64,000 nt of DNA from an uncultured delta proteobacterium (GTDB lineage Bacteria > Myxococcota_A > Polyangia > Fen-1088): the NCBI GenBank assembly GCA_963767925.1, contig CAVYGB010000006.1, positions 224,001 through 288,000 on the forward strand, written 5' to 3'. This document shows, one piece after another, positions 31,643 to 60,181 of the stretch. Every line of letters starts with the position of its first letter. Positions within the stretch are counted from its first letter, which is position 1. The position numbers and the translations under genes were made by a program. A model generated the notes under the pieces. It was not told where the DNA came from. It saw only the letters and a program-made list of their open reading frames with translations, and ran no database searches.

Positions 31643-31653
31643 GTGTGTTCTCC

Positions 31654-37030: not shown

Positions 37031-37033
37031 GAC

Positions 37034-40616: not shown

Positions 40617-43600
40617 TCAACCCCCGGTCCGGGCCGCGGCGGCCAGAACCGGAGACAGCTCTGTCGTCTCGTCAGCCCCGGCCAGCGACGCGAGACTGCT
40701 GGCCAGGGCGGCTACGGTCTGGTGCTGGAAGAGCTCCTGGGCGGTCAGTCCGTAACCCATCTCGTTGAGCTGGGACACGATCTGGATGGCCTGGATGGAG
40801 TCGCCCCCGAGATCGAAGAAGTTGTCATTCAGACCGACGTCTTCGACCCCCAGCACGCGCTGCCAGACCTCGATCAGCTTCTGCTCGAGCTCACCGACCG
40901 AAGCGACGATCGGCGGGGCCGAAACGGCCTGCCCCGCCTCCGGGGAGGGTGCGGTCGCCTGGGCGGCGGCAACGGCCACCTGTCGTTCCGACGGGCGCTC
41001 CAGGGCCAGGCGCAAGGAGGCGTGCAGGTCGCGCGCCGAGACCACGACCTGAGGATGACCTTTCAGGAAGGCGAGCCGGCGGAAGGCCTCCGCCCCCTCG
41101 GCCGGGCTGATCCCCTGGGCGAGCTGATCGGCGTAGACCCGGTCGAGGGTCTTCTTCATCGGGCGTCGGGCGGCGGTGTCTTCCCAGCGGCCATACTGGC
41201 GATTGGCGAACGCGCGCACCTGCCCCGTGACGTCGTTGATCCGCTTCTGGGCGAAGGCCTCGATGTCCACCAGCTCGTCGCCCTCGCCGTTCATGAACAC
41301 CACGTCGAAGGTGATGGTCTGACCGGTCGGGTCGACCTCCTCCCGGAACCTCACGTGGACGAAGATCTTCCGCGTGAGCGGGCGGTGGAGCGTCAGTCGG
41401 CGGTAGCCCATCGGCAGGTAGATCCCGCTTCTGATCAGGAACTCCTTGCCTGTCCCGGTCGCCCGATCGAGCAGCGAGGGATGCAGCTTCATCGTGGCGA
41501 GCTCGGCGTTGAACATCTCCGGCAACTCGAGGATCGCCAGGTGCTCGTTCTTTCCCACGTGGGCCTCGCGCAGCGCCTGCCAGCGCGGTCCGAGATCCTC
41601 GTCGCGAGACGAATCGTCGGTGATGACCACGTGCCGGTCGGAGCAGCGGCGCATGAGAGCCTTCAGATCGTGGCGTCGCGGCGCAGTGGCGGGCACGAGG
41701 CGGATCTTCCCGCTGGCATAGTCCTTCCACTCGCGCCCACCCTGCCCGTTGACGCCCTCCCCTTGACCCTCGCTGGCCTGGCTACTGACACGGAAGCTGA
41801 AGCCGCCGGGATCATCTCTCTTGATGGTGGTCCGGACCTCACGTTGCTCGTCGTCCCTCAGCCCGAGGGGCGCCAGGAAGAAGGCGTCCCGGATCTCCAG
41901 GGCGGCGCCGCCGGCATGGCGCTCGACGGCGGCGCGAGCCATCTCCAGGTAGGCCGTGCCCGGCATCACGGCGCTACCGACGATCCGGTGTTCGTCGAGC
42001 ACCCAGTGCGTGCGGGGGCTCACCCGGGTCAGATAGACCTCGGTCCCGTCCGGCCCCTGGCTGTAATGGTCGAGCAAGGGGTGGTCGGACGTCGTCGTCG
42101 TCCCGGGCAGAGACGCGTGTCGGGCCGCCTTGTCCGCGAGCATGCCAACGCCTTTCCAGGCGTCCCAGTTCAGCGAGAGGATCGGGTTCATCGAGTCCCG
42201 GGTGGACGCAGCGAAGACATCGAGGAACGCATTCGCCGCACAGTAGTCGGACTGCCCGAAGCCGCCGAGGATCGCGCTGCGCGATGAGCACGCCACGAAG
42301 AAGTCGAGCGGTGTGTCGCCCAGCAGCGAGGCGAGAAGCCTCGTGCCGGTAACCTTGGGCGCCAGCACGGCCCGTATCGCCTCGCGCGTCTTGAGCTGGA
42401 TCATGCCCCCCCCGGCCACTCCGGCCGCGTGGATCACCCCGTGGATCTCGCCGAACCTCTCCCGGGCTCGGTCGAGCGCGCCGCTCAGCGAGGAGGCATC
42501 GCTCACGTCTGCGCTGAGGACGAGCACTTCCGCGCCCTTCGCCTCCAGCTCGCGCAGCCCCCGGATGCGCGTTGAGGTAACGTCTCCCTCCGGGTGGCCG
42601 TCGAGCCAGGACTGCCAGGTCTCGGGCGAAGGTAGCTCGGACCGACCGATCAGCACGAGCTTGACCGGTCCGGATTCAACCAGGCAACCTGCCAGGGTGA
42701 GCCCGATTCCCCCGAGCCCGCCGCTGATCAGGTAGACCCCGCCCGGCCGGACCCGGAACGAATCGGTCGAAGGCGATGCCAGGGAGGTGTAGGTCGGCTG
42801 CCAGCGATGACGGCCGTAGAGCGCGACTCTCTGCTGCGTGCCGTGCTCGCACTCGGTGACGAGCTGCTCGACCCTGCCTCCCGTCCAGGGTCGGCCCACC
42901 TCGAGGTCGAGGTCGATGTGGCGGCAGGTGAGGGTCGGATACTCCTGGGGGATGACCTGGCAGGCGCCAAACAGGGTAGCGCGCTCGGGCCCAAGCACCC
43001 GATTGCCGATGACGTCGTGGAGCTGGTTTGTCACGAACACGAGGTCGGTGGTCGTGGAATCGGGCAGACGACCGAGCGCCTGGGCCAGGTAGATGGCCGA
43101 CAGCAGGCTCGCGCCCGTCTCTCGCTCGGCCTCACCCTCGGCGGCGACATTGCCGAGGTGAAGAATCCGCGAGGGCCAGCGCCCCTCGGCGCGAAGACCG
43201 TTGAGCAGCCGCTCGTAGCCCTCCGGTCCGGAGGGGTGCAGGGCCAGCTCGCCGTCGACTCGCATCACCTCGATCCCGCGCCGGCTCAGCTCGGCGCCGA
43301 CCGCGTCGGCCAGCCCGTGCGCGTCGGCGAGCAGCAACCAGGGCCCCCGGTCGCTGGCCGTCCTGGACGTCACGAGTGGGCTTCGCTGCCAGGTCGGGAC
43401 ATAGAACCATTGATCGAGATCCGGGCGCTTCTCCAGGGTCTCGAGGGCGGTGTCGGTGGCCGAGGTGGACCCCGGGTCGACCCAGCAACGCTGCCGTTCG
43501 AAAGGATAGCCGGGCAACGTCACGCGCGAGCGCGCTTCGTGCCGGTGAAACCCGCTCCACTCGATGCTCCCTCCCACCATCCACAGCCGACCGAGGGTGG

Positions 43601-46130
43601 TGAGCAGGAAGGCCTCATCGGAGGTAGCCTCGCTGGGGTGTCGCAGGGTGCTCAGGACCACCTGCGCCGCTGCGCGGGCCGGATGGAGGCGGGCGAACGT
43701 GCTGAGGCTGCGCCCGGGGCCGACCTCCAGGAGGACCGAATCGGCCTGGCGGACCAGCTCGGCGAGGCCATCGGCGAACCGGACGGTGTGCCGCAGGTGG
43801 CGTACCCAGTACCCGGGGTCCGTGGCCTCGGCGGCGGTGATCCAGGTCCCGGTGAGGTTGGACAGGTAGGGGCGCTGAGGGGCGTGAAAGCGGGCTCCCG
43901 CGCAGATCTCCCCGAACTCGGCAAGGATCGGGTCGAGCATATGCGAGTGAAAAGCGTGTGAGGTGTGCAGGCGCCGAACCGCCACGCCTCCGGCTCCGAG
44001 CTCACGCTCCAGGCCTTCGATGGCCAGGAGGGGCCCGGACAGCACGCATGATTCGGGGCCATTCACGGCTGCCAGCGAGAGCTGCTTGGACGCCGCCAGC
44101 TCGCGGCAAGCGGCCTCTGTCTGGGGCACCACCAGCATGCCGCCCGGCGGAGCCTTCTGCACGACCCGGCCGCGCAGAGCTACGAGGCGGAGCGCGTCTT
44201 CCAGCGAGAAGACGCCGGCCAGGCAGGCGGCCACGTATTCGCCGATGCTGTGGCCGATCATCGCGCTCGGCTCCAGCCCCCACTCGCGGCACAGCGCCGC
44301 CAGGGCGTATTCGATCACGAACAGCGCGGGTTGAGCCAGCTCGGTCTGGCGCAGCCGCGCGCTGGCCCGGGCCTCATCGACGCCTGCCGCGGGGAAGATC
44401 ACCTCGAGGAGATCGACCCCCAGGATCGGCCGAAGTTGCCGGGTGCAGGCCTCGACCTCACGTCGAAACGTCGGTTCGTGCCGGTACAGATCGAGGCCCA
44501 TGCCGATGTACTGGGCCCCCTGGCCGGGGAACATGAACACGAGGTCCCGTTGCCGGGGCTCGTGAAACCCAGTCCGGCCCAGCGTCGGATCCAGGCTGCG
44601 AAGAGCGCGGCTCGCCTCGTCGCGATCCCGGCAGACGACCATGCGCCGGTGGGGCAGCTGCGCGCGCCCGACCTGGAGGGTGTAGGCGACGTCCGGCAGC
44701 TCCAGGGACTGATCCTGGTCCAGCCGCTCCGCCAGACGGCGCGTGCTCTCCTCGAGAGCCGAGCTCGTCCCGGCCGAGAGAAGGAGCAGTTGCTGGGGGC
44801 GGCTGGCCGACCCCGCCGGGCTGGGCGGGGCTTCCTCGAGCACGAGGTGGGCGTTGGTGCCACCGATCCCGAACGAGCTGACACCAGCACGCAGCGGCCG
44901 GGGACCCTGCCACTCCTTCAGGCTGTCGTTGACCCGGAAAGGGCCTGCCGCGAACGGGATCTCGGGGTTGGCCCGAGAGAAGTGCAAGCTGGGCGGCACC
45001 TGCCGGTGTTGCAGGGCGAGCACGGTCTTGATCAAGCTCGCGACACCGGCAGCCGCGTCGAGGTGCCCCAGGTTGCTCTTCACCGAACCGACGAGACAAG
45101 CGCCGGGGGCGGCGTTTCGGAAGGCTTCATTGAGGGCGGCGATCTCTATCGGATCGCCCATCCGTGTCCCCGTCCCGTGGGCTTCGAGGAAACTGATCGA
45201 GGCGGGATCGACGCCGGAGACGGCGTGCGCCTCGCAGACGACGCGGGCCTGTCCCTCGACGCTGGGCGCGGTGTAGCCGACCTTGCCCGACCCGTCGTTG
45301 CCGATGGCCGAGCCCCGGATGACCGCGTAGATCCGATCGCGATCGGCGAGGGCGTCGGCCAGGCGCTTGAGGACCACAACTCCCGCGCCGTTGCCGCTCA
45401 CCGTGCCCTGGGCCTCGGCGTCGAATGGCCGGCAGTGGCCATCGGGCGACATGATGCCGCCTTCCTCCGCCAGGTATCCGCTGCGCTGAGGTACCGTGAC
45501 CGACGCTCCCCCGGCCATCGCCAGATCACATTCGTGCTGCAAGAGGCTCTGGCAGGCCAGGTGGACCGCGACAAGCGACGTGGAGCAAGCGGTCTGCACC
45601 GTCACCGCCGGCCCCTTGAGGTTCAGGCGGTAGGCCACGTTGGTGGCGACGTGGTCGCCCCGGTTGCGGATCGAGGTCTGCAAGAACCCGCTCGCCTCCA
45701 CGACCTTGCGGTTGCTCAGCAGGTTGTTGAGGAGGTAGTGGTTGAAGCCGACGCCTCCGAAGACGCCGACCGTCTGCTTGCACCTGGCCGGGTCGTATCC
45801 GGCGTTCTCGAGGGCCTCCCAGGCACACTCCAGGAACAGGCGCTGCTGGGGATCGGTGAGCTCCGCCTCCCGGCGGGAGTAGCCGAAGAAGGCGGGGTCG
45901 AAGCCCTCCACGTCCTCCACGATCCCCCGTCGCCGCACGTAGCGGGGGTCGCGCGCCGCGCGCGTCTCCCCCTCTGGCAGCTCCAGTTCCTCGGGGGCGA
46001 AGGTCGCGATGCACTCCACGCCGTCGCGCAGGTTGCGCCAGAAAGTCTCCAGGTCCGGAGACCCGGGGAACCGTCCCGACATGCCGACGACGGCCACCCT
46101 CGGAAGCGAGTCGTCCGGAGCGTTACTCAT
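40617..46130 (-). CDS. Type I PKS module KS-AT(malonyl)-KR with inserted DH-ACP; no TE
   Basis: KS TACSTS/EAHGTGT/NLGHL; AT GHSIG and HAFH; KR GGLGGIG, GQSDYCAAN; DH EHRIVGSAVMP and LHPSLLD; carrier GGDSI. Confidence 0.95.
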   Translation of the reverse strand: MSNAPDDSLPRVAVVGMSGRFPGSPDLETFWRNLRDGVECIATFAPEELELPEGETRAARDPRYVRRRGIVEDVEGFDPAFFGYSRREAELTDPQQRLFLECAWEALENAGYDPARCKQTVGVFGGVGFNHYLLNNLLSNRKVVEASGFLQTSIRNRGDHVATNVAYRLNLKGPAVTVQTACSTSLVAVHLACQSLLQHECDLAMAGGASVTVPQRSGYLAEEGGIMSPDGHCRPFDAEAQGTVSGNGAGVVVLKRLADALADRDRIYAVIRGSAIGNDGSGKVGYTAPSVEGQARVVCEAHAVSGVDPASISFLEAHGTGTRMGDPIEIAALNEAFRNAAPGACLVGSVKSNLGHLDAAAGVASLIKTVLALQHRQVPPSLHFSRANPEIPFAAGPFRVNDSLKEWQGPRPLRAGVSSFGIGGTNAHLVLEEAPPSPAGSASRPQQLLLLSAGTSSALEESTRRLAERLDQDQSLELPDVAYTLQVGRAQLPHRRMVVCRDRDEASRALRSLDPTLGRTGFHEPRQRDLVFMFPGQGAQYIGMGLDLYRHEPTFRREVEACTRQLRPILGVDLLEVIFPAAGVDEARASARLRQTELAQPALFVIEYALAALCREWGLEPSAMIGHSIGEYVAACLAGVFSLEDALRLVALRGRVVQKAPPGGMLVVPQTEAACRELAASKQLSLAAVNGPESCVLSGPLLAIEGLERELGAGGVAVRRLHTSHAFHSHMLDPILAEFGEICAGARFHAPQRPYLSNLTGTWITAAEATDPGYWVRHLRHTVRFADGLAELVRQADSVLLEVGPGRSLSTFARLHPARAAAQVVLSTLRHPSEATSDEAFLLTTLGRLWMVGGSIEWSGFHRHEARSRVTLPGYPFERQRCWVDPGSTSATDTALETLEKRPDLDQWFYVPTWQRSPLVTSRTASDRGPWLLLADAHGLADAVGAELSRRGIEVMRVDGELALHPSGPEGYERLLNGLRAEGRWPSRILHLGNVAAEGEAERETGASLLSAIYLAQALGRLPDSTTTDLVFVTNQLHDVIGNRVLGPERATLFGACQVIPQEYPTLTCRHIDLDLEVGRPWTGGRVEQLVTECEHGTQQRVALYGRHRWQPTYTSLASPSTDSFRVRPGGVYLISGGLGGIGLTLAGCLVESGPVKLVLIGRSELPSPETWQSWLDGHPEGDVTSTRIRGLRELEAKGAEVLVLSADVSDASSLSGALDRARERFGEIHGVIHAAGVAGGGMIQLKTREAIRAVLAPKVTGTRLLASLLGDTPLDFFVACSSRSAILGGFGQSDYCAANAFLDVFAASTRDSMNPILSLNWDAWKGVGMLADKAARHASLPGTTTTSDHPLLDHYSQGPDGTEVYLTRVSPRTHWVLDEHRIVGSAVMPGTAYLEMARAAVERHAGGAALEIRDAFFLAPLGLRDDEQREVRTTIKRDDPGGFSFRVSSQASEGQGEGVNGQGGREWKDYASGKIRLVPATAPRRHDLKALMRRCSDRHVVITDDSSRDEDLGPRWQALREAHVGKNEHLAILELPEMFNAELATMKLHPSLLDRATGTGKEFLIRSGIYLPMGYRRLTLHRPLTRKIFVHVRFREEVDPTGQTITFDVVFMNGEGDELVDIEAFAQKRINDVTGQVRAFANRQYGRWEDTAARRPMKKTLDRVYADQLAQGISPAEGAEAFRRLAFLKGHPQVVVSARDLHASLRLALERPSERQVAVAAAQATAPSPEAGQAVSAPPIVASVGELEQKLIEVWQRVLGVEDVGLNDNFFDLGGDSIQAIQIVSQLNEMGYGLTAQELFQHQTVAALASSLASLAGADETTELSPVLAAAARTGG

Positions 46131-52300: not shown

Positions 52301-54971
52301 AGGCCGCCACCTCATCGGGCTCGATGCGGTGACCCCGCAGCTTGATCTGCTGATCGGTGCGCCCCAGGAACATCAAGTCGCCGTCTTCGGTATGGCTGCC
52401 CAGATCGCCGGTCCGGTACAGGCGGGCGCCCGGCGCCCGGGAGAAGGGGTCGGGCAAGAAGCGTTCGGCGGTCAAGGCCGGCCTCCCCCGATAGCCGCGC
52501 GCGACACCCACCCCGGCGACGTGCAACTCCCCCGGCACGCCGGTCGGCACCAGCTCGAGCTGGTCGTCCAGCAGGTAGACCGCGGCGCTGGCGATCGGGC
52601 GTCCGATAGACGGCGCCGAGGCGGACGGCTCGGGCGACACCGGTTGCGAGGTGGCCACCACCGAGGCTTCAGTGGGGCCGTAGTTGTTCACCAGCTGGAA
52701 GGGAAGACCCGCGCGCGGGCGGCTGCGCAGGCGATCCCCGCCGGTCAGGAGTAGACGCAGGGGCGCATGGGCCGGCCAATCGAGCGCGAGCACGGCCTCG
52801 GCCAGCGGAGTGGGCAGGAAGCAGGAGGTGATGCCCCGGCTGAGAATCCAGTCCCGGAGGCCAGCGGGCAGGAGGCGGACCTCGGCGCTCGGAAAGAAGA
52901 GCGCCGCGCCGCTGGTCAGCGCCGACCAGATCTCCCATACCGAGGCATCGAAGCTCTGGCTAGCGACCTGCCCCGTCCGATCGCCGGGACCGAGCGAGAA
53001 GGCTTGCCGGTGCCAGCGAACCAGGTTGGCGAGCCCTCGATGCGTCACCTCCACGCCCTTGGGCTGCCCGCTGGATCCCGAGGTGTAGATGACGTAAGCG
53101 AGGTTCTCGAGACCGGGCGGCGAGCCCTCGACCTCGGCGGCTTGCAGCGGCGGTGAGTTCAGCTCGTCATCGGTGACGACGAGGGCCGGACCCTCGCCCG
53201 ATGAGAACCGCCGGCGCAGGCGGGGCTCGGTGAAGATGGCCAGGCAGCCCGCGTCGCGGATCATGAAATGCAGCCGCTCGTCCGGGTAGGCCGGGTCCAG
53301 GGGGAGATAGGCGCTGCCGCACTTGAGGATGGCCAGCATGGCGACCACGGCATCGGGCCCGGGTTCACAGAAGACGCCGATCAACGACTCCTGGCGGGCA
53401 CCGAGGCGACGCAGCCGGGCCGCCAGGCGCTCGGATCGACGATCCAGGTCCAGATAGGTCAGGCATTCGTCTCGGCGCTGGAGCGCGATGGCCTGCGGCG
53501 CATCGGCCAGCCGGCGCCCGAACAGCTCCAGCACGGTGTCGTCGGCCCGGTCGCCGAGGGCCGGGCCCCGGGACCTGCCCAGCACACGTTTTCGCTCGCC
53601 GGCATCGAGCAGGCCGAGCCGGGCAACGCCGAGGTCGGGGTCGGCCACCGCCGACCCGAGCAACTGGACGAACTGGCCGCAGAATCGGTCAATCGTTTCG
53701 GCGGAGTACCGATCGGAGCGGTACTCCACCGGGCCAGCGATCTCGGGGCCCAGGTCATCCAGGTTCAGCGTCAGGTCGAACTTGGCCGTACCGGTATGGA
53801 TCGGTTCTCCCCGCCCCCGCACATCACCGAGCATCAGCTCACTGTTCAGGCCAGCCTGCCAGGCCAGCACGCAAGTCAGGGGCGAATCGCTCGACCGGGA
53901 ACGGGCCAGCTCGGGGGCGGCCGCCTCGAAGGGCACGTCCTCGTGGGCCTGGGCGTCGAGCACCGTCGCCCGCACTCCGCGCAGGAGCTCGCGAAAGCTG
54001 GCCCGGCCATCCACCAGGGTGCGCAGGCCGACCATGTTGACGAAGAGGCCGACCACCCCGTGGGTCTGGCGCTCACGGCGACCGCTCACCGGGCTGCCCA
54101 CGAGGATGTCCTTCTGCCGAGTGAGGCGGGAGAGAAGCAGCTGGAGGGCCGTCAACAGCGTGGTAAAGACGGTGACGCCCTCGCGCCGGCTGAACTCGCG
54201 CACAGCCTGGGTGAGGGCCTGCCCCAGGCTGAGAGGCCACAGCTTGCCGGGGTACCCCTGCTCGGCGCGAGAGGGGCGGCAGGCGGGCAGCGGCAGGCCC
54301 GGCGTCGCGCCGCCGAGTTGACCACGCCAGTAGCTCAGGCTCGCGTCCAGGGCCCCCCCGGTCAGCCGTTCGCGCTGCCAGGCGGCGTAGTCGGCGTACT
54401 GGATCTCCGGCTCGGCCAGTGACGGCGGCCGTCCGGCGCGGTGGTCCCGGTACAGCACCTGCAGCTCCCGCAGCAGCACCCCGATGGACCAGCCATCGGC
54501 GACGAGATGATGGAGAACGAGGATCAGCACCTGCTCGCCGCCGGGCCGCCGGATCAATCGGGCACGCGGCACCAGCGGGGCCCCCAGATCGAAGGGACGT
54601 GTGGCCTCCTGTCGCATGACGCCGGCGAGATCGCGCTCGCTGACCGGCTCGCCATTCCCCGGAATCGTTCCGACCTCGAAGCTCAGCTCCGCGTCCGGGT
54701 GGATCCGCTGATAGACCCCGTCTCCGACCGTGAGAAAGCTGGTCCGGAGGGCTTCATGGCGGCGCACCAGCTCTTGCAAACTGGCCCGCAGCGCCACCGG
54801 ATCCACGTCGCCACGCAACCGGACGGCGCCGGCGATGTGAAAGAGAGGCCCACCCGGCGCCAGTTGCTCGCGCAACCAAATCCGCTCCTGGGCGAGGCCC
54901 AGGGGAAAGCAGCCGTACTCCGATCCTCGAGAGTCGAGCAGTGCCTTGGCCTGGTTGGTCACGGAGGTCAT
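49326..54971 (-). CDS. NRPS C-A(Leu)-T-C-TauD
   Basis: HHLVADG and HHIVADG C domains; A code DAWFLGNVVK; GGHSL; C-terminal dioxygenase with HNE and VAHGR. Confidence 0.93.
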   Translation of the reverse strand: MTSVTNQAKALLDSRGSEYGCFPLGLAQERIWLREQLAPGGPLFHIAGAVRLRGDVDPVALRASLQELVRRHEALRTSFLTVGDGVYQRIHPDAELSFEVGTIPGNGEPVSERDLAGVMRQEATRPFDLGAPLVPRARLIRRPGGEQVLILVLHHLVADGWSIGVLLRELQVLYRDHRAGRPPSLAEPEIQYADYAAWQRERLTGGALDASLSYWRGQLGGATPGLPLPACRPSRAEQGYPGKLWPLSLGQALTQAVREFSRREGVTVFTTLLTALQLLLSRLTRQKDILVGSPVSGRRERQTHGVVGLFVNMVGLRTLVDGRASFRELLRGVRATVLDAQAHEDVPFEAAAPELARSRSSDSPLTCVLAWQAGLNSELMLGDVRGRGEPIHTGTAKFDLTLNLDDLGPEIAGPVEYRSDRYSAETIDRFCGQFVQLLGSAVADPDLGVARLGLLDAGERKRVLGRSRGPALGDRADDTVLELFGRRLADAPQAIALQRRDECLTYLDLDRRSERLAARLRRLGARQESLIGVFCEPGPDAVVAMLAILKCGSAYLPLDPAYPDERLHFMIRDAGCLAIFTEPRLRRRFSSGEGPALVVTDDELNSPPLQAAEVEGSPPGLENLAYVIYTSGSSGQPKGVEVTHRGLANLVRWHRQAFSLGPGDRTGQVASQSFDASVWEIWSALTSGAALFFPSAEVRLLPAGLRDWILSRGITSCFLPTPLAEAVLALDWPAHAPLRLLLTGGDRLRSRPRAGLPFQLVNNYGPTEASVVATSQPVSPEPSASAPSIGRPIASAAVYLLDDQLELVPTGVPGELHVAGVGVARGYRGRPALTAERFLPDPFSRAPGARLYRTGDLGSHTEDGDLMFLGRTDQQIKLRGHRIEPDEVAASLKREPSVADAFVDLRRSPDGAEPLLAAYVVFRPAQQADEARLRQHLRRHLPEYMIPSLLLPVAALPLTANGKIDRQALEQLSPPVQGQRRSPLSSPAEEVVAQVWSSLLVREDICPEASFFELGGHSLSAAQMIVRLREAFGKEVPLRWAFDYPVLRDLVAQVGRLGQTGASPPSARLDATLRTSRLPLSSGQERLWFLDRFTGSRAAYHIAGAVRLRGPLDRDALARSLEGIVARHEVLRTSVREEGGVPYQQLEEGVRATLSFSDLRQSGVEPGSSELSALLRAEVNRCFDLGVPPLLRCRLYQIGDDEHVFLLVLHHIVADGWSIGILLAELVERYRAHRQGQAPGLAPLEVQYPDYVAWQRQQLTSGAFAGSLAYWLDQLRGAPAGLTLPQARTREGNGSIASYEGGTAKIELPAGLVREIEALGRREGATLFMTLLAAWEALLARTSGTYDIVVGTDFASRNHPALEPLIGLMVNQVVLRTDLGGAPSFRELLGRVKRVVLQAWEHQDVPFGAVVEHLRPPRELGRNPLFQVMVILQSAPATLNLPGLDLSPVEMDAEGAVFDLSLAFVPRAGGLVASLRYASIFERRFAEQLLTDLRSVLEAVVTDPDACPTTSEVNRSMREDDNRVPPGQPAGSRVSALLEGLRATRPRPTTIVPSELVAMRRLEAEHPLPLLVEARRPDVDLAAWLADQVDDIRQRLAREGALLFRGFAIGGAEDFRKAVQRISPALIPYGERSSPRSEISAGIYTSTDHPEDEPILLHNEQSYTLEWPRRIWFCCLQPALRGGATPIADSRRILKRLTPATIARFRERQVLYVRNYGENFGLSWVEAFQTTDREKVAEHCRRAHIQLQWSADGRLHTRQVRPALRTHPETGEATWFNHLLFFHVSSLPERVLSAMASGLTEHDLPFNTFYGDGGQIEPEVLAEIRAAYLAETRGFPWQQGDILALDNMLVAHGRDPFVGPRRIAVAMTDPHDALAPREGAP

Positions 54972-57900
54972 GGCTTGCTCTCGCGCAAGAGCCGCCGCAC
55001 GTCCCCGTCGCCGCGGGTCAACCGGCGGATGCTGCCCAGGGGCGCCGCCTGACCGGCGCTCGCTTCGATCGCCTCGGCGACCGCCGCCACCGTCGGGGAG
55101 TCGAACAGCTGCCGCAAGGGCAGATCCACGCCGAAGCGGGCCTCGAGGCGCGCGCGGACCGTGACCATCAGCAGCGAGTGCGCGCCGAGAGTGAAGAGGT
55201 CCTCGTCGGGGCCAACCGCGGCTATGCCCAGGGCGTCGGCCCAGATGCGACCCACCTCGGCCTCGGTCGCGTTGCGGGCCGGTCGACGCGTGTCCAGCTC
55301 CCCGGTCGGCGCCGGCAAGGCGGCGCGATCGACCTTCCCGTTGGGCGTGCGGGGCAAACGCTCCAGCACCACGATCCGGGCCGGCTCCATGTGGCGGGGC
55401 AGCCGGGCCCTGAGATGACTCTGCAGATCCTGGGGGGAGACAGACTGGTCCGGTCGGAGGGCCACGTAGGCCACCAGCCGGCGATCCGCGGCGCCGCCAG
55501 CCAGGACAGCCACGCTCTCCCCGACCGCCGGGTGGGCGGCCAGCACCGAGGAGACCTCCCTGAGCTCGATCCGGAAGCCCCGGATCTTGACCTGGTCGTC
55601 CTCGCGACCGAGGAACTCGAGCCGGCCATCCCGGCGCCAGCGCACGCGGTCTCCAGTCCGGTATACCCGCTCGCCCGGCTCCTGGGCGAGCGGGTCGGGG
55701 ACGTAGCTCGCCGCCGTCAGGCCGGGCCGGCGCCAGTAGCCCCGCGAGACGCCGGGGCCTCCGATGTAGAGCTCACCCGCCACACCGACTGGCACGAGCT
55801 GCTGTCCTGGATCGAGCACCCGCAGGGTGGTGGCGCCAAGCCCCACTCCGATCGTGACGGGCTCGCCTCGCCGGAGGGTGGTCCAGGTCGAATAGGTGGT
55901 GGTTTCAGTGGGCCCATAGAGGTTGTTGACCCGCAGCTCGGACGATCCGGCCCGATACAGGCCTTCGACAAGGGTCGCGTCCAGGGGCTCGCCGGCCAGA
56001 TTGATGGCTCTCAGGTCAGGCGGCAGCCAGCCGGCGCTCGCCACCGCCGCCATCGCCGAAGGGACTGTGTTGATCAGGCGCACCGCCTCGACCGAACCTC
56101 CCTCGCGCTGCCCCTCCCACCATTGCAGCAGGTTCTCGGCGAGGACCACCGCGCCGCCGCTGCAAAGTGGCGCCCACAGCTCGAAGATGGACAGGTCGAA
56201 GCAGGCCGAGGTGGAGGCGAGGACACGCTCGAGCTCGGCCGGCCCGAACGCTCCCGTCGCCCACTGCACGAAGGCGTCAGCCTGACGGTGCTCGATCATC
56301 ACGCCCTTCGGGACACCGGTCGAGCCAGAGGTGTAGATCAGATAGGCAACGTTCGCCGGGCCGACCGACGACTCGGCTGCCTCTTCAGATTCGCCCGGCG
56401 CGACGCCGACGAGGCCCTCGGCGTCCAGGGTGATGACCCGACTGGCACCGCCGTCGAACCGTCCCGTCCAGCGTGGCTCGGTGATGATGGCGAGCGCCGC
56501 GGCGTCGCTGGCCATGAAACGCAGCCGCTCTTCCGGATAGTCCGGGTCCAGGGGCAGGTAGGCAGCCCCCGCCTTCCAGACCGCCAGCATCGCCTCTACC
56601 ATCCGCCCGGACCGGGAGAGGCAGATCCCGACCCGCTCTTCCGGACCCACGCCAAGGGCCCGGAGCTGGCGGGCGAGGCGGTTGGCCCGACGATCCAGCT
56701 CTCGATAGCTGATCGACTCTCTGCCGTCGAGCAGGGCCGGACGTTCGGGCGTCTCCCGGGCCTGTCGTTCGAAGCGGTGATGCAGGCACACGCAGGCCGG
56801 AGGACGAGCGGCGGGCGCCTGGAAGCTCAGGATCGTGGCCCGGGCGGCTTCGGACAGGATGGGAAGATCGAGGATCGGCCGGTGGGGATCTTCGGCGATC
56901 GACCGGAGCAGGACCTGAAGACATTCCGCCCAGCCGGCCACGGTTTCGGGCGCGAGCAGATCGCTGCGATAACGCAGGCGTCCTCCCAGGCCTTCCTCCA
57001 CCTCGCCGAGGGCGAGGCTGAGGTCGAACTGGGCAGTCCGCTCGGGCAGAGCGACCGACTCGAGCGCCAGCTCTCCCACCTGGAGCTTCGCGCCGCCCAT
57101 CCCCAGAGCCAGCCGGGCCATCCCCCAGCCGTCGCGCTCCGCCTGCTGGGCCTTGTGAAAGGTGAAGCTGGCCTGGATGGGAGCACGGTTACTCGCCCCG
57201 CGTGAGAGCTGGCTGGCCTTCACCATCAGCGGGAAGGGGTAGGCGGCGTGTTCCATCCCGCTCAGCACCCGTGCCCGGACCTGCCCGAGGAGCTCGTTGA
57301 AGGTCGTCACCCCCGCGAAATCGACCCCCAGCGGCAACATGTTCACGAAGTAGCCGATCACGTCGGCAAACTCCGCCCGCGGTCGGCCGGAGCTAGGCGT
57401 GCCCACGACGAAGCGCGCCTGGCCGGTCAGGCGGTGCAGCAGGGCCAGCCAGGCCGCCGCTGTCACCATGAACAGCGTGGCCCCGTTCTTCGTGGCCACC
57501 TCCTGCAGGCGCTCCCGGACCTCCAGGTCGACGATGAAGTCCAGGCTGGCCCCGGCAGCGGCCTCCTCCCGGGAACGCGGGTTGTCGAGCGGCAAATCGA
57601 GCTGTGGCCACTCCTGGCCCAGCTCGCCCTTCCAGTAGGTCGCCAGACGGTCGCCCTCGCTGCCGGCCAGCAGGTCCTCCTGCCAGGCCACGAACTCGGC
57701 GTAGCCGTCCCGGGCCGCCTCGACGTCCAGGCGCAGGTTCAGCCCGAGCGCGGTGTAGATCGTGCCCAGCTCCCGCAGCAGCAGCACCAGCGACCAGAGG
57801 TCGGCGACGATGTGGTGGATCACGAACAGCAGGAGGTGTTCCTCCTCGGAGCGACGGTAATGCGTCACCTGCAACAGCGGCCCCTCCGCCAGGTCGATCG

Positions 57901-60181
57901 GCCGATGGGCGTCCTCTTCGAGGGTCCGGGCCAGCTCCACCTCGCTCAGCGCCTCGACGGGAAGGAAACGCACGACCCGGGGGTCGTTGCGCCGAAGCAC
58001 CCTGACCGCCTCCCCGCGGGCGACGGGGAAGCTGCTGCGCAAGGCAGGATGGCGCTCGAGCAGCAGCTCCAGGGCCCTCCGCAGGCGATCGCGATCGAGC
58101 ACACCTCGCAGGCGCACGACCCGCGCGATGTTGTTGCTCGCTCCTTCCGGATCGAGTTGCTGCAGGAACCACAGGGCTCGCTGGCCGTGCGAGAGCCCGC
58201 CACCGCCCGAAGAACTGGGCGGCGGGCGCCCCGCGCCGATCCGCCGGGCGGTGTCGGCCAGGCTCAAGCGTTCGAACAGCAGCGAGGGCTCGATCGCCAG
58301 GCCAAACTGCTTCTCGAGCCCGTGGGCGATCTCGATGGCCGCCAGGGAGTCGAGGCCGTAAGCCGTGATGGGCTGCTGGGGGTCCACCGACGCCGGCGGC
58401 AGACCCGCTCGCCGAGCCACCTCCGCCCGCAGCCAGGCGCCGACGGCGTCCTGGTCCCCCGGCGAGGGGGTGGCAGTCGAACGGCCAACGACCGAGAGCG
58501 TCCCGTCGAGGAAGGCTCGCCGGCACTGACTCCGCTGGATCTTTCCACTCGAGGTCTTCGGGATCGACCCCTTGCGGATGAGCACGACCTCGTGGGCCGC
58601 CAGCTCGTGGCTCGCGGCCAGGGCCTGCCGGATCGCGGCCTCGATCTCGTTGCCGTCGACCCCGCTCCCTCGGTCCACCTCCGCCACCACGACCAGCCGT
58701 TCCTCCCGCTCGATCTCGACTGACACCGCCGCCACGCAGCCCGGTCGCAACAGGGGATGGCTCCGCTCGACGCTGACCTCGATGTCCTGCGGGTAGTGGT
58801 TCTGGCCACGCAAGACGAGGAGATCTTTGCAGCGGCCCGTGATGACGAGCGATCCGTCTTCGAGGAAGCCGAGGTCGCCGGTCCGCAGGAAGGGGCCCCT
58901 GCCGCTCCCCGAGAGAAAGGACTGAAAGGTGAGGGCCGACTCCTCTGGCCGGTTCCAGTAGCCGACGGCCACGCTGCCCCCCTTCACCCAGATCTCGCCC
59001 ACCTCACCCGGGCCACGCTCCGACCCGGTCTCCGGATCGACGATGACCACCTCCTGCTCGCCGAGAGGTCGCCCACAGCCCACGAGGCTGGCGGCGTCCG
59101 CCGCCGCCTCTCGCCGCACCAGCCGGTGCTCCCCGAGCGCGTGCTTGTCGACGTGCAGGACGAGCGGGGATCGGGCTTTGTGGCTCCCCGTGACCATGAG
59201 GGTGGCCTCGGCCAGGCCGTAGCAGGGGTAGAAGGCCTCGGCGCGAAAGCCACAATCGGCGAAGACCTCGGCAAAACGGGTCAGGGTGTGCGCGCGCACC
59301 GGCTCGGCCCCGTTGAAGGCGACCGTCCAGCTCGACAGATCGAGCCCCGCCCGCTCGGCCGGGGAGATCTTCTCCAGGCAGAGCTCGTAGGCGAAGTTGG
59401 GCCCGCCGCTGGTGGTGGCCCGATAGCGGGAGATAGCCTGCAACCAGCGGAGGGGCCGCTTGAGGAAGGCGGAGGGCGCGATCTGGACACAGGGGATGCC
59501 AGCAAAGAGCGGCTGCAGCAGACCGGCCATGAAGCCCATGTCGTGGAAGGTGGGCAGCCAGGACACGTAGCTGTCGCCCGCGCCATGCTCCACCGCCGCG
59601 TGGACCAGGGCCGCGTTGTGCAAGAGGTTGGCGTGGGTGAGCATCACCCCTTTCGGGGTGCCGGTTGAGCCCGAGGTGTACTGCAGGAAGGCTACTTCGT
59701 CCGGCGGCCCGCCCGGCAGGCGCTCCTGGGCCTCGGGCACGACATCGGTGGCGATCCAGGTGAAGCGTCCAAGATCGAGCCCCTGCTCCATGAACCCCGC
59801 CTGGATCCGCTCGACCAGCGCGGCGGTGGTGAGCACGCAGGTGGGCTGGGCGTCGGCCATGATCGCGACGAGGCGGCTCAGCGTGCGGGTGCTGGTAGGC
59901 GGATAGGCGGGCACGGCGATGACTCTGGCGTGCAGGCAGCCGAAGAAGCCGACCAGGAAGTCGAGCCCCGCAGGGTAGAGCAACACCGCGCGGGCGCCGG
60001 GGTTTGCCCGATCTCGCAAAGCTGCCGCCACCGAGAGGGCGCGGCGGCGCAGCAGGGCGTAGTCGAGGCTCATCTCCTCGCGATCGCCGTCGGGCAAGAA
60101 GGTGAAGGCCTCCCCGACCGGGGACGTCTCGGCCCGGAGATCGAGCAGGTCGGTCAGGGTATCTGGCTGAGATGAACGCAT
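54968..60181 (-). CDS. Lipo-initiating NRPS FAAL-ACP-C-A(Ala)-T
   Basis: FAAL AFLQYTSGSTG, SWLPTFHDMG, YPCYGLAEAT, PKTSSGKIQR; ACP GLDSL; C HHIVAD; A code DLFNNALTYK; GAHSL carrier. Confidence 0.95.
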   Translation of the reverse strand: MRSSQPDTLTDLLDLRAETSPVGEAFTFLPDGDREEMSLDYALLRRRALSVAAALRDRANPGARAVLLYPAGLDFLVGFFGCLHARVIAVPAYPPTSTRTLSRLVAIMADAQPTCVLTTAALVERIQAGFMEQGLDLGRFTWIATDVVPEAQERLPGGPPDEVAFLQYTSGSTGTPKGVMLTHANLLHNAALVHAAVEHGAGDSYVSWLPTFHDMGFMAGLLQPLFAGIPCVQIAPSAFLKRPLRWLQAISRYRATTSGGPNFAYELCLEKISPAERAGLDLSSWTVAFNGAEPVRAHTLTRFAEVFADCGFRAEAFYPCYGLAEATLMVTGSHKARSPLVLHVDKHALGEHRLVRREAAADAASLVGCGRPLGEQEVVIVDPETGSERGPGEVGEIWVKGGSVAVGYWNRPEESALTFQSFLSGSGRGPFLRTGDLGFLEDGSLVITGRCKDLLVLRGQNHYPQDIEVSVERSHPLLRPGCVAAVSVEIEREERLVVVAEVDRGSGVDGNEIEAAIRQALAASHELAAHEVVLIRKGSIPKTSSGKIQRSQCRRAFLDGTLSVVGRSTATPSPGDQDAVGAWLRAEVARRAGLPPASVDPQQPITAYGLDSLAAIEIAHGLEKQFGLAIEPSLLFERLSLADTARRIGAGRPPPSSSGGGGLSHGQRALWFLQQLDPEGASNNIARVVRLRGVLDRDRLRRALELLLERHPALRSSFPVARGEAVRVLRRNDPRVVRFLPVEALSEVELARTLEEDAHRPIDLAEGPLLQVTHYRRSEEEHLLLFVIHHIVADLWSLVLLLRELGTIYTALGLNLRLDVEAARDGYAEFVAWQEDLLAGSEGDRLATYWKGELGQEWPQLDLPLDNPRSREEAAAGASLDFIVDLEVRERLQEVATKNGATLFMVTAAAWLALLHRLTGQARFVVGTPSSGRPRAEFADVIGYFVNMLPLGVDFAGVTTFNELLGQVRARVLSGMEHAAYPFPLMVKASQLSRGASNRAPIQASFTFHKAQQAERDGWGMARLALGMGGAKLQVGELALESVALPERTAQFDLSLALGEVEEGLGGRLRYRSDLLAPETVAGWAECLQVLLRSIAEDPHRPILDLPILSEAARATILSFQAPAARPPACVCLHHRFERQARETPERPALLDGRESISYRELDRRANRLARQLRALGVGPEERVGICLSRSGRMVEAMLAVWKAGAAYLPLDPDYPEERLRFMASDAAALAIITEPRWTGRFDGGASRVITLDAEGLVGVAPGESEEAAESSVGPANVAYLIYTSGSTGVPKGVMIEHRQADAFVQWATGAFGPAELERVLASTSACFDLSIFELWAPLCSGGAVVLAENLLQWWEGQREGGSVEAVRLINTVPSAMAAVASAGWLPPDLRAINLAGEPLDATLVEGLYRAGSSELRVNNLYGPTETTTYSTWTTLRRGEPVTIGVGLGATTLRVLDPGQQLVPVGVAGELYIGGPGVSRGYWRRPGLTAASYVPDPLAQEPGERVYRTGDRVRWRRDGRLEFLGREDDQVKIRGFRIELREVSSVLAAHPAVGESVAVLAGGAADRRLVAYVALRPDQSVSPQDLQSHLRARLPRHMEPARIVVLERLPRTPNGKVDRAALPAPTGELDTRRPARNATEAEVGRIWADALGIAAVGPDEDLFTLGAHSLLMVTVRARLEARFGVDLPLRQLFDSPTVAAVAEAIEASAGQAAPLGSIRRLTRGDGDVRRLLRESKP

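What the first reader, a model, noticed from the sequence alone, without database searches (positions are those of the whole stretch)
40617..60181. Predicted lipopeptide-ketide: fatty acyl-Ala-Leu-(3-OH)Glu extended to a vinylogous residue, with no terminal TE
Seen: collinear FAAL-ACP, A codes for Ala, Leu and Glu, then a malonyl PKS with KR and DH ending at a GGDS carrier. Known: amino acid plus KR/DH ketide extension gives alpha,beta-unsaturated gamma-amino acids, the Michael-acceptor warhead of syringolin and glidobactin. Inference: a vinylogous hydroxy-Glu (or Gln if AsnB acts on it) protease-inhibitor-like scaffold, passed on in trans to NRPS genes beyond the right edge or to the free C domains. 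I cannot match it to a known compound.
Basis: partly seen in the sequence, partly recalled or inferred. Interest (0 to 1): 0.8.

Follow-up and report, generated by a model that had tools for sequence, protein, structure and literature searches.

The report
Orphan lipopeptide-polyketide assembly line
An environmental bacterium carries an uncharacterised gene cluster for a fatty-acid-capped peptide in which a hydroxylated glutamate is extended into a reactive unsaturated unit, probably a new relative of known enzyme-blocking natural-product warheads.

Summary
On the minus strand, 60181 to 40617, four translationally coupled genes encode FAAL-ACP-C-A(Ala)-T, C-A(Leu)-T-C-TauD, a dead C-like "interface" domain-A(Glu)-T, and KS-AT(malonyl)-KR-DH-ACP.

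- 3-OH-Glu is well supported. The C-TauD | interface-A-T layout is the one known from lipid siderophores, here with a Glu code.
In print that order marks the NRPS(Ser)-PKS bimodule that makes the 4-amido-2,4-pentadienoate warhead by double dehydration.
- The product unit is therefore either a vinylogous hydroxy-Glu or a Glu-derived 2,4-dienoate.
- All three other interface-A(Glu)-T proteins found share contig length and source with a KR-DH PKS, so the pairing looks conserved.
- No NRPS lies beyond the right edge, only one free C-domain gene.
- Onward steps probably use three free C domains and two stand-alone A-T proteins with an Asp-type DARH code.
- AsnB belongs to a conserved AsnB-racemase-A-T cassette, so it is unlikely to act on Glu.
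- The only thioesterase is type II-like.

No close characterised relative was found; MIBiG could not be searched. I rate it a new variant of a known kind, of moderate interest.

The parts
63022..64000 (-). Free-standing C-domain protein 'Cup'. It runs off the window and is complete in L001:1022-2644, at most 540 aa, with a probable start at Met74.
   Evidence: Pfam Condensation 4.4e-88. The C1 motif is IEDVYVVTPLQEGMLF, which is DCL-like (a recalled rule), and the active site is [10 protein letters not shown]. Upstream genes are unrelated.
61039..62766 (-). Fused ABC exporter
   Evidence: NCBIfam TIGR01194, cyclic peptide export ABC transporter, 449.7 bits against a cut-off of 286.2.
60154..60990 (-). 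Discrete thioesterase, type II-like; its 3' end overlaps the g1 start by 28 nt
   Evidence: Pfam Thioesterase 2.7e-45. The best solved relatives are the stand-alone TEs 6vap, RifR (3.4e-44), 3qmw/3qmv, surfactin TE subunit and YbtT.
54968..60181 (-). g1: FAAL (58421-60181), ACP (58226-58423), starter C (56831-58195), A code DLFNNALTYK (55334-56773), T (55067-55255)
49326..54971 (-). g2: C (53577-54914), A code DAWFLGNVVK (52083-53516), T (51816-52001), C (50454-51740), TauD (49380-50273)
   Evidence: Both C domains have HHxxxDG. The TauD matches At3g21360-type dioxygenases at 9.1e-33.
46123..49329 (-). g3: interface-like dead C domain (48010-49284, LPALCAD in place of HHxxxDG), A code DAKDLGVVDK (46516-47970), T (46240-46434), basic C-terminal tail
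40617..46130 (-). g4: KS (44979-46100), AT with HAFH (43716-44540), KR (42153-42740), DH (41235-42083), ACP with LGGDSI (40698-40883). KR lies before DH.
39722..40456 (-). ABC ATPase of the MacB/DarD type
   Evidence: Pfam ABC_tran 6.5e-30. NCBIfam DarD 242.5 bits, below the cut-off.
38920..39471 (-). NusG/RfaH/LoaP-like paralogue inside the operon
   Evidence: Pfam NusG 4.4e-13. UpxY family 81.6 bits, below the cut-off of 100. Start located.
37034..38902 (-). Glutamine-dependent asparagine synthase (AsnB), starting MCGIAG
   Evidence: TIGR01536 466.8 bits against a cut-off of 267.1..
36050..37030 (-). Free-standing TauD-family hydroxylase
   Evidence: Pfam TauD 1.5e-41. 42% identical to the fused TauD.
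35300..36031 (-). Asp/Glu-family amino acid racemase
   Evidence: Pfam 1.4e-25. TIGR00035 93.4 bits against a cut-off of 93.1.
33409..35322 (-). Stand-alone A-T, code DARHAALMVK, with a C-terminal docking-like tail
31654..33408 (-). Free-standing C domain 'C_b' (LCL-like, HHIIGDE) with an N-terminal extension of about 130 aa
29675..31642 (-). Stand-alone A-T, code DARHLALMVK, with the same C-terminal tail
27259..29667 (-). ADOP-family duplicated (MacB-like) permease
   Evidence: TIGR03434 766.9 bits against a cut-off of 622.3.
21745..23127 (+). Free-standing C domain 'Cfree' (LHSIFDE), on the opposite strand at the left border; membership of the cluster is uncertain
   Evidence: Pfam Condensation 4.3e-50. 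Motif.

Best explanation
This is an orphan, FAAL-primed hybrid NRPS-PKS cluster spanning about window 21.7 kb to 64.6 kb on the minus strand.

Shown by domain content:
- A fatty acid is adenylated and loaded on an ACP.
- It is condensed with Ala, then with Leu.
- The chain is then condensed with Glu held on the T domain of g3.

Inferred by analogy with integrated beta-hydroxylases of lipid siderophores: the TauD fused to the end of g2, positioned by the dead C-like domain at the start of g3, hydroxylates that Glu at C3.

Shown by motifs, inferred as chemistry: g4 adds one malonyl unit. Its KR reduces the ketone and its DH, which lies after the KR, dehydrates. The result is an ACP-bound gamma-acylamino-alpha,beta-enoyl thioester that carries the former Glu C3-OH at the delta position. 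Whether that hydroxyl stays (vinylogous 3-OH-Glu) or is also eliminated is open; I lean slightly to retention.

Inferred from here on:
- The chain does not end at g4. Free-standing C domains pass it to two stand-alone A-T proteins.
- Their DARH code and conserved racemase/AsnB/TauD neighbours point to an Asp-type residue, probably D, possibly side-chain linked, then amidated and/or hydroxylated.
- Release needs no type I TE. A third free C domain or the type II-like TE would do it.
- Export runs through the ABC and ADOP transporters.
For: Core line:
- Domain order and E-values.
- Exact coupling of g1-g4.
- FAAL relatives.
- Specificity codes.

Hydroxylation of Glu:
- Potashchelin has FAAL-ACP-C-TauD-C-A(Asp)-PCP, with the TauD at a protein's C-terminus acting on the adjacent module (passages).
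- A same-class genome, G276, has A-MT-T-C-TauD followed by X-A-T with the code DSALIAEVWK, which I recall as a His code.
- Of 54 relatives of the g3 N-terminal domain that lack HHxxxD, 44 are followed by Asp-, Asn-, Gln-, Glu- or His-type codes. The 15 hits that keep HHxxxD have Gly, Ser or hydrophobic-type codes (14) or gave no code (1).

DH likely active:
- It matches CurF, PksJ, CurH and CurK DH domains at 1.5e-17 to 4.8e-14, with His and Asp aligned.
- Among 120 listed family members, 118 keep HPxLLD and 115 keep the KR Tyr motif.

Pairing of Glu with the KR-DH module:
- All 3 other proteins with an interface domain and the code DAKDLGVVDK share contig length and source with a KS-AT-KR-DH-ACP protein. 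These are P0276/P0036, P0265/P0110 and P0269/P0136.
- g4 is 50% and 49% identical over its full length to P0036 and P0110.

Onward path:
- 11 of 13 examined A-T relatives carry DARH or DPRH codes.
- AsnB occurs in 4 of 5 long loci and the racemase in 4 of 5. One locus has methylaspartate mutase instead.
- One relative is fused as A-T-TE.
- Both window A-T proteins share one C-terminal tail.
Against: - Nothing here is biochemical.
- The KR lacks the LDD motif (VAGGG instead) and the Trp of A-type KRs, so the alcohol configuration and olefin geometry cannot be predicted.
- The YGP motif of the DH is degenerate (LGPRW).
- Which free C domain serves which step could not be resolved. Similarity to C domains of the PKS family was uninformative.
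- Cfree lies on the other strand and may not belong to the cluster.
- The DARH substrate rests on gene context and on a recalled rule. NRPSpredictor called a DPRH code 2-aminoadipate in the zeamine paper.
- Co-location of P0276/P0036 and the other pairs rests on equal contig lengths, not on seen contigs.
- The genome is 83.8% complete with 5% contamination.
Confidence: 0.55

Rival explanations
1. Double dehydration. The KR-DH didomain removes both the new beta-hydroxyl and the TauD-installed delta-hydroxyl. This gives a 4-acylamino-2,4-dienoate bearing a carboxymethyl group, a Glu-derived analogue of the 4-amido-2,4-pentadienoate (APD) warhead. On this reading the fused TauD exists to supply the leaving group that serine has by nature.
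For: - In APD cyclolipodepsipeptides the warhead comes from an NRPS(Ser)-PKS bimodule. Its PKS has the same unusual KR-DH order (PMC13110770 passages; bioRxiv 10.64898/2026.09.17.752105 sections 5 and 7).
- That PKS module alone sufficed, the His-Asp dyad was essential, and no singly dehydrated product was ever seen.
- Those assembly lines also start with a FAAL and release through a terminal C domain.
- In the window a beta-hydroxy amino acid module directly precedes a KR-DH module.
- This pairing recurs in 3 of 3 other Glu-coded cases.
Against: - The A domain is not Ser-specific, and PMC13110770 places non-Ser systems in clades II-VII, whose products are unknown.
- No DH-like Pfam match lies between AT and KR, whereas APD modules carry a DHt domain there.
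- The extra His five residues after the catalytic His is Ser here, although that His was dispensable.
- More distant KR-DH modules follow A domains with other codes. Of 15 aligned, 12 are D(A/F)EQLG(L/M)IWK and none is Ser or Glu. The domain order alone therefore does not imply a second elimination.
- I could not obtain a clade I sequence to compare.
Confidence: 0.3
2. The chain ends at g4. The 5-hydroxy-2-enoyl thioester is released by hydrolysis (type II-like TE) or by attack of the delta-hydroxyl to give an unsaturated delta-lactone. The A-T/C/A-T cassette then makes a separate small peptide or decorates the product elsewhere.
For: - g4 ends at the ACP and no C domain is fused to it.
- A discrete TE is translationally linked to g1.
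- The preprint notes that a vinylogous serine survives only when trapped in a macrolactone, in thalassospiramide.
- The AsnB-racemase-A-T cassette occurs in loci without this PKS.
Against: - Three free C domains and two A-T proteins lie in the same cluster, all but one on the same strand and tightly spaced.
- In the metagenome loci the cassette is embedded in line between NRPS genes.
- C_b is most similar (41%) to the terminal C domains that precede such A-T proteins.
- The TE resembles editing TEs.
Confidence: 0.12
3. The product is an amphiphilic lipopeptide siderophore. Its beta-hydroxy acid residues, from two TauD enzymes, would bind iron, as in cupriachelin or potashchelin.
For: - The same FAAL-ACP-C start and the same C-TauD | C-like-A-T layout as potashchelin.
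- Two TauD enzymes.
- A SyrD/PvdE-family exporter.
- A Peripla_BP_2 gene about 8 kb beyond the cluster, at L001:10783-12222.
Against: - The hydroxylated residue is Glu, which gives a beta-hydroxy acid rather than an alpha-hydroxy acid.
- No TonB-dependent receptor, hydroxamate or catechol genes appeared in the ORFs I scanned.
- A KR-DH ketide unit is not a known siderophore feature (my knowledge).
- The antiSMASH metallophore models could not be run.
Confidence: 0.1
4. The DH is inactive in this context and the module gives a statine-like gamma-amino-beta-hydroxy acid.
For: The YGP motif is degenerate (LGPRW) and the KR type is atypical.
Against: The catalytic His and Asp motifs are intact and are conserved across the family, with HPxLLD in 118 of 120.
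Confidence: 0.05

Closest known systems
APD-forming NRPS(Ser)-PKS(KR-DH) bimodule of rakicidin, BE-43547 and microtermolide cyclolipodepsipeptides
   Same: A beta-hydroxy amino acid module is followed directly by a KS-AT-...-KR-DH-ACP module with KR before DH. The DH His-Asp dyad is intact. The line starts with a FAAL and release does not depend on a type I TE.
   Different: The amino acid is Glu, hydroxylated on-line by a fused TauD, not Ser. No DHt domain lies before the KR. The downstream modules are dissociated proteins. Clade membership was not testable, and the published non-Ser clades have unknown products.
Integrated beta-hydroxylase with interface-type C domain of lipid siderophores (potashchelin seen; cupriachelin, taiwachelin and Reitz et al. 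2019 recalled or seen only as citations)
   Same: FAAL-ACP-C start. The TauD is fused after a C domain at a protein's C-terminus. The next protein begins with a C-like domain without HHxxxDG, followed by A-T.
   Different: The A-domain code is the Glu type, not Asp or His. A PKS module follows. No receptor genes were seen.
Barnesin A (brn cluster)
   Same: A lipopeptide whose last amino acid is extended by KS, KR and DH into a vinylogous amino acid; it inhibits cysteine proteases (abstract and section 2.1 read).
   Different: Barnesin uses a trans-AT PKS with a terminal TE, a vinylogous Arg, a C-starter rather than a FAAL, and no hydroxylase.
Syrbactins (syringolin, glidobactin); recalled, not tested
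   Same: An amino acid plus malonyl extension with KR and DH gives an alpha,beta-unsaturated gamma-amino acid that acts as a Michael acceptor.
   Different: There is no macrolactam-closing TE, no Lys module and no ureido or 12-membered ring logic here.
Kutzneride KtzO/KtzP
   Same: TauD-family hydroxylation of carrier-bound Glu to 3-OH-Glu. Seen only as a citation; otherwise recalled.
   Different: Those are stand-alone enzymes. Here the hydroxylase is fused and paired with an interface-type domain.
Microcystin-type supply of D-Asp or D-MeAsp (McyF racemase with a side-chain-activating A domain); recalled
   Same: An Asp/Glu-family racemase lies next to an A domain whose code begins D-x-R-H. 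One related locus adds methylaspartate mutase.
   Different: The A-T proteins are stand-alone and are joined by AsnB and TauD. The substrate and the regiochemistry are untested.

Membership tests
FAAL-primed lipopeptide assembly line | N-terminal fatty acyl-AMP ligase followed by an ACP and a starter C domain | tested here: met
   Pfam order. The best solved relatives are FAALs.
Integrated beta-hydroxylase / interface-domain architecture | TauD-family domain fused at the C-terminus of an NRPS protein, after a C domain | tested here: met
   g2 residues 1567-1864, TauD 2.9e-44.
Integrated beta-hydroxylase / interface-domain architecture | The next protein begins with a C-like domain that lacks HHxxxDG | tested here: met
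   LPALCAD at the motif position. 54 of 69 hits, the window's own protein included, also lack the motif.
Integrated beta-hydroxylase / interface-domain architecture | Hydroxylated residue is Asp or His, as the family was defined (recalled, and named) | tested here: not met
   The code is DAKDLGVVDK, a Glu type. Three further proteins have the same code after such a domain.
APD-type NRPS-PKS bimodule | KR-DH order within the PKS module | tested here: met
   KR at 1187-1382 and DH at 1406-1688 of the ORF. The strict motif order holds in 85 of 120 listed relatives.
APD-type NRPS-PKS bimodule | DH catalytic His (HxxxGxxxxP) and Asp (HPxLLD) | tested here: met
   HRIVGSAVMP and HPSLLD.
APD-type NRPS-PKS bimodule | Ser-specific A domain in the preceding module | tested here: not met
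   The code is a Glu type. A beta-hydroxyl would come from the TauD instead, which is an inference.
APD-type NRPS-PKS bimodule | Membership of clade I in the KR-DH didomain tree of PMC13110770 | not testable with these tools
   No clade I sequence could be fetched. Named hits were Acidobacteriota and Myxococcota MAGs and isolates.
APD-type NRPS-PKS bimodule | DHt domain directly upstream of the KR | tested here: not met
   No DH-like Pfam match between AT and KR at E<=1e-5.
Syrbactins | Terminal TE closing a 12-membered macrolactam that contains the vinylogous residue and a Lys-derived residue | tested here: not met
   No TE domain on g4 and no Lys-type code. The feature list itself is recalled.
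Type II thioesterase | Discrete protein of about 250-280 aa, most similar to editing TEs | tested here: met
   278 aa. RifR 3.4e-44, also 3qmw/3qmv, surfactin TE subunit and YbtT.
Side-chain-activating acidic amino acid A domains (D-x-R-H codes) | Code beginning D-(A/P)-R-H | tested here: met
   DARHAALMVK and DARHLALMVK. 11 of 13 relatives share it.
Side-chain-activating acidic amino acid A domains (D-x-R-H codes) | Activation of the omega-carboxyl of Asp, MeAsp, Glu or Aad | not testable with these tools
   Only context is available: a racemase in 4 of 5 loci and methylaspartate mutase in L022. A DPRH code was predicted as Aad in PMC3547906.
NRP metallophore | Chelator-forming enzymes together with siderophore uptake genes | tested here: inconclusive
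   Two TauD enzymes are present. No TonB-dependent receptor appeared in the scanned ORFs. One Peripla_BP_2 gene lies about 8 kb away.

The most novel reading that the evidence does not exclude
The window holds a Glu-based counterpart of the APD warhead bimodule. A fused TauD installs a hydroxyl on carrier-bound Glu solely as a leaving group. The KR-before-DH module then performs two eliminations, giving a 4-acylamino-2,4-dienoate with a free carboxymethyl arm. Because the interface-A(Glu)-T plus KS-AT-KR-DH-ACP pair recurs on at least three other contigs, this would assign a chemistry to one of the KR-DH hybrid clades whose products are reported as unknown.
Probability: 0.3. Interest if true: 0.75.

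Novelty: new variant of a known kind. Interest (0 to 1): 0.5.

Why it matters
Vinylogous and dienoate amino acid units are rare, electrophilic pharmacophores found in protease, proteasome and hypoxia-selective inhibitors.

A 2026 survey counted 10,327 KR-DH against 186,303 DH-KR configurations. It stated that the products of the non-serine hybrid clades are unknown and of considerable interest.

This cluster offers a concrete, testable case: an on-line hydroxylase feeding a KR-DH module, conserved in several environmental contigs. It comes from a lineage with acidobacterial hallmarks, whose chemistry is almost unexplored.

It also extends the fused-hydroxylase/interface-domain architecture from Asp and His to Glu, and outside siderophores. 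It further exposes a recurrent AsnB-racemase-A-T cassette of unknown product.

Tried and rejected
- An apparently very strong match of the stand-alone A-T to linear gramicidin synthase (574 bits) was the sum of two ordinary A-T matches and means nothing special.
- I tried to assign the free C domains by similarity to C domains of the KR-DH PKS family. Cup, Cfree, g1 C and the g3 domain had no hits at E<=1e-10, and the others only weak ones.
- The window TE against the fused TE of L015 gave 24% identity at E 8e-5, which is uninformative.
- Genome relatives of g4 in representative genomes were KS-AT-KR-ACP without a DH in 3 of 3 loci scanned (L002, L004, L005; L003 was not scanned). They say nothing on the DH.
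- The region upstream of the G096 PKS was not collinear. The G078 contig ends inside the PKS.
- Literature searches:
  - For the literal strings KS-AT-KR-DH(-ACP) I found only nominal domain lists.
  - The search for the codes found only the Leu code and one DPRH code.
  - The supplement of PMC12283262 held none of the codes.
  - Reitz et al. 2019 (PMC6778253) is not held, so the definition of the interface domain is recalled.
  - The rhabdobranin paper has no passage on domain order.
- The search of earlier findings gave nothing relevant.
- One search failed on the machine side and was repeated once.
- Not attempted: a tree of KR-DH didomains, structure prediction, complex prediction and sequencing-run look-ups.
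Full report
**What is there**

The window is about 69% G+C. It lies at G000:C6:224001-288000 in a 9.3 Mb genome of 13 contigs, 83.8% complete with 5% contamination. The finding spans four minus-strand genes.
- The genes overlap as ATGA (g1/g2), GTGA (g2/g3) and ATGAGTAA (g3/g4). They are therefore one translationally coupled unit.

Pfam gives these architectures:
- g1: FAAL-type AMP-binding with a DIP2-like C-terminal domain, ACP, C, A, T.
- g2: C, A, T, C, TauD.
- g3: a weak Condensation match (2.2e-16), A, T.
- g4: KS, AT, KR, DH, ACP.

The loading domain's best solved relatives are fatty acyl-AMP ligases (7r7g at 3.6e-166, 3kxw, FadD32, FadD23, FadD28).

**Specificity and active sites**

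I read the ten-residue codes by hand and checked nine of ten positions by alignment. They are DLFNNALTYK, DAWFLGNVVK and DAKDLGVVDK.
- The second is named the commonest Leu code in PMC12283262 (passage).
- The third differs at one position from DAQDLGVVDK, which that paper gives for Glu and Gln (section 12 read).
- That the first is an Ala code and the third the classical Glu code is my recollection.

The C domains of g1 and g2 keep HHxxxD. Both C domains of g2 have LCL-type N-terminal motifs, and no E domain is present. I therefore expect L residues.

In g4 the motifs are as follows:
- The KS has its Cys.
- The AT has GHSIG and HAFH, which indicates malonyl by a recalled rule.
- The KR has YCAAN.
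- The DH has HRIVGSAVMP and HPSLLD.
- The ACP has LGGDSI.

The DH aligns over about 265 residues with CurF DH (1.5e-17), PksJ DH, CurH and CurK.

**The hydroxy-Glu**

The N-terminal domain of g3 has LPALCAD where HHxxxDG should be. Its best solved relatives are an ordinary C domain (Txo1) and the P450-recruiting X domain of teicoplanin synthetase.

The same layout is described for potashchelin: a C domain, a fused TauD at a protein's end, then a C-like domain before A-T. There it reads FAAL-ACP-C-TauD-C-A(Asp)-PCP, and the TauD is said to act on the adjacent module (passages). The concept of an interface domain (Reitz et al. 2019) I know only from memory and from citations, because the paper is not held.

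Two tests made here support the reading.
- First, a same-class genome, G276, encodes A-MT-T-C-TauD, with a TauD 46% identical to the window's. It is followed by a protein with a non-matching N-terminal region and an A domain of code DSALIAEVWK, which I recall as a His code, and then by C-A-T-TE.
- Second, a database search with the g3 N-terminal domain gave 69 hits, the window's own protein included.

After alignment, 54 of those 69 lack HHxxxD. Their A-domain codes are:
- 25 Asp type (DLTK.GH.GK).
- 7 DLTK/DATK..GEVGK.
- 6 Gln type (DAWQ.GLI.K).
- 4 DAKDLGVVDK (the window, P0265, P0269, P0276), plus 2 near variants.
- 2 His type.
- 6 other.
- 2 with no code.

The 15 hits that keep HHxxxD have Gly, Ser or hydrophobic-type codes (14) or gave no code (1). 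The dead domain is thus tied to residues that are known hydroxylation targets. The Glu version is recurrent but, as far as my searches went, not described.

**The PKS module**

KR precedes DH.
- Whole-protein relatives in representative genomes are only 41-46% identical. In the 3 of 4 loci I scanned they are KS-AT-KR-ACP without a DH.
- A search with the DH region found 416 proteins of near length with E<=0.001. The best are 64-66% identical.
- The named ones are MAGs of Pyrinomonadaceae, Blastocatellia, Candidatus Angelobacter and Polyangiaceae, and Pendulispora.
- Of the 120 listed, 118 keep HPxLLD, 115 keep the KR Tyr motif, 93 match a strict His motif, and 85 show the strict order KR, DH, ACP.
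- Many carry a luciferase-like monooxygenase and a C domain after the ACP.
- In place of the LDD motif nearly all have V(A/P)GG. Only 1 of 120 has an Asp in those three residues.
- The KR's best solved relatives are trans-AT KRs (MlnE at 9e-36, PksJ). The stereochemistry therefore cannot be called.
- In a sample of 401 genomes of the phylum, 29 have a DH match at E<=1e-30. The best non-self identity is 41%.

**What the KR-DH order means**

Two 2026 papers bear on this.

PMC13110770 (passages read) makes these points:
- APD cyclolipodepsipeptides are built by a FAAL-primed line.
- The NRPS(Ser)-PKS bimodule of that line contains an atypical KR-DH didomain.
- Of 220,645 DH sequences, 186,303 are in the DH-KR configuration and 10,327 in KR-DH.
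- 2,354 of the KR-DH cases lie in hybrid systems that form seven clades.
- Clade I is the APD group. Clades II-VII use other amino acids and have unknown products.

The preprint 10.64898/2026.09.17.752105 (abstract, introduction and sections 5 and 7 read) shows the following:
- The module alone installs both double bonds.
- The His and Asp dyad is essential.
- No singly dehydrated product was seen.
- Release is by a terminal C domain, with the TE dispensable.
- It also mentions a case where the same order is linked to epimerisation.

The window has the same logic with a different amino acid: a beta-hydroxy amino acid module directly before a KR-DH module.

**Is the pairing conserved?**

All three other proteins with a dead C-like domain and the code DAKDLGVVDK have the same printed contig length and source as a KS-AT-KR-DH-ACP protein from my other searches:
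- P0276 with P0036 (43,853; jgi).
- P0265 with P0110 (18,906; lgn).
- P0269 with P0136 (5,832,828; ncbi and ena).
- An Asp-coded one, P0286, pairs likewise with P0010 (39,728; lgn).

g4 is 50%, 49%, 57% and 62% identical over its full length to P0036, P0110, P0010 and P0003. The Glu-coded proteins all end in similar basic tails.

I did not see the contigs, so adjacency is inferred. P0136 itself has another A domain fused upstream of its KS, so that pair may not be adjacent.

Against a general link to hydroxy amino acids: of 18 more distant KR-DH modules with a fused upstream A domain, 15 could be aligned. Of these, 12 have D(A/F)EQLG(L/M)IWK, 2 have DTELAGLVV(K) and 1 has DSEWIGGVLK. None is Ser or Glu.

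I conclude that the module certainly makes the alpha,beta double bond. Loss of the delta-hydroxyl is a live possibility, which I put near 0.3.

**Beyond g4**

- The gene running off the right edge is a free-standing C protein of at most 540 aa (Condensation 4.4e-88).
- The next genes are a gluconolactonase-like gene on the other strand, an AsmA-like gene, a LigD primase and others.

Downstream of g4 on the same strand lie, in order:
- An ABC ATPase.
- A NusG-like gene.
- AsnB, which passes TIGR01536 and starts MCGIAG.
- A second TauD, 42% identical to the first.
- An Asp/Glu-family racemase.
- A-T, C, A-T.
- An ADOP permease, an M28 peptidase and a solute symporter.

A further free C gene lies on the plus strand.

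The two A-T proteins have the codes DARHAALMVK and DARHLALMVK and share one C-terminal tail.

A metagenome scan gave 20 loci, of which I examined 13.
- 11 have DARH or DPRH codes. The other two, at 35-38% identity, have other codes.
- In the 5 long loci, AsnB occurs in 4, the racemase in 4 and a luciferase-like monooxygenase in 4.
- L022 instead has PhyH, a racemase and methylaspartate mutase E before the A-T.
- L015 has A-T-TE.
- L013 adds a free C, a free TauD and an NRPS that begins with a motif-less C-like domain.

The code DPRHLALLAK of L021 equals that of zeamine Zmn16 A1, which was predicted as 2-aminoadipate (Table 2 passage). From memory, D-x-R-H codes belong to modules that activate the side-chain carboxyl of D-MeAsp, D-Glu or Aad.

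I therefore read the cassette as supplying an Asp-type, probably D, residue that AsnB amidates. This makes AsnB acting on the Glu unlikely.

On the free C domains: C_b is LCL-like and closest (41%) to the terminal C domains that precede such A-T proteins. Cup has a DCL-like N-terminal motif. The exact order of the three free C domains is unresolved.

**Release**

The only thioesterase, at 60154-60990, most resembles stand-alone type II TEs (RifR at 3.4e-44, 3qmw/3qmv, the surfactin TE subunit, YbtT). 'No terminal TE' thus holds for the whole cluster. Release by a free C domain, as reported for APD lines, is my inference.

**Organism**

- The permease is an ADOP-family protein. Seven such genes pass the cut-off in this genome, against none in 14 control genomes.
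- The closest named homologues are Acidobacteriota and Myxococcota.

This suggests, but does not show, an acidobacterium.

**Novelty**

In what I searched I found no close characterised relative.
- Domain identity is at most 66%. Whole-gene identity is at most 62% to unnamed metagenome proteins, and at most 46% in representative genomes.
- For g3, the best full-length matches in 40 related genomes reach 37%, and A-T-only matches 42%.
- MIBiG was not available.

The kind is known: a hybrid NRPS-PKS lipopeptide cluster. The variant is new to me in three ways: a fused hydroxylase and interface domain used for Glu, feeding a KR-before-DH module, with dissociated downstream modules.

Supplements of the bioRxiv preprint are closed and those of PMC13110770 were not opened. 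They may hold the clade assignments that bear on the dienoate reading.

Noticed in passing
window 38920-39471 (-): A NusG/RfaH/LoaP/UpxY-like paralogue sits in the middle of the biosynthetic operon, between the ABC ATPase and AsnB. It may be an operon-specific antiterminator. It scores below every NCBIfam cut-off.
   Followed up: partly
window 29675-38902 (-); L013, L015, L016, L018, L022: A recurrent cassette of (luciferase-like monooxygenase)-AsnB-racemase-stand-alone A-T with a DARH code occurs in unrelated soil metagenome NRPS loci. L022 replaces AsnB by PhyH plus methylaspartate mutase. Its product is unknown.
   Followed up: partly
proteins P0002-P0120 and P0121-P0240: There is a large family of KS-AT-KR-DH-ACP modules: 416 near-length and 221 longer hits at E<=0.001. 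Many are fused to a MupA/Atu3671-type monooxygenase and a C domain, mostly from Acidobacteriota MAGs. A more distant subgroup follows A domains of the unassigned code D(A/F)EQLG(L/M)IWK.
   Followed up: partly
G276:C1:5327815-5341027 (L049:3815-17027, -): A small three-gene NRPS in a complete same-class genome: A(code DVWHISLVDK)-MT-T-C-TauD, then X-A(code DSALIAEVWK)-T, then C-A-T-TE. It predicts a beta-hydroxy-His tripeptide. The Ser and His assignments of these codes are recalled.
   Followed up: partly
window 24977-27727 (-) and 23099-24940 (-): An M28 peptidase with a long multi-pass membrane region and a sodium:solute symporter follow the ADOP permease on the same strand. They may belong to the operon, for maturation or uptake.
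   Followed up: no
window 27259-29667 and 39722-40456 (-); whole genome: The MacB-type permease (ADOP family) and its likely ATPase are separated by 10 kb of biosynthetic genes. Seven ADOP genes pass the cut-off in the genome.
   Followed up: partly
window 1-20200: The left third of the window is unrelated: a GGDEF fragment, a CheX-like gene, a Cache-HAMP-Hpt histidine kinase, an ABC/FtsX/LolA-like set, an S9 peptidase with PD40 repeats, a beta-lactamase-family gene (17061-18218) and an aldo/keto reductase.
   Followed up: no
L013:9352-19271: In L013, a free C domain, a free TauD and an NRPS starting with a motif-less C-like domain form a split version of the fused C-TauD | interface-A-T layout.
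   Followed up: partly
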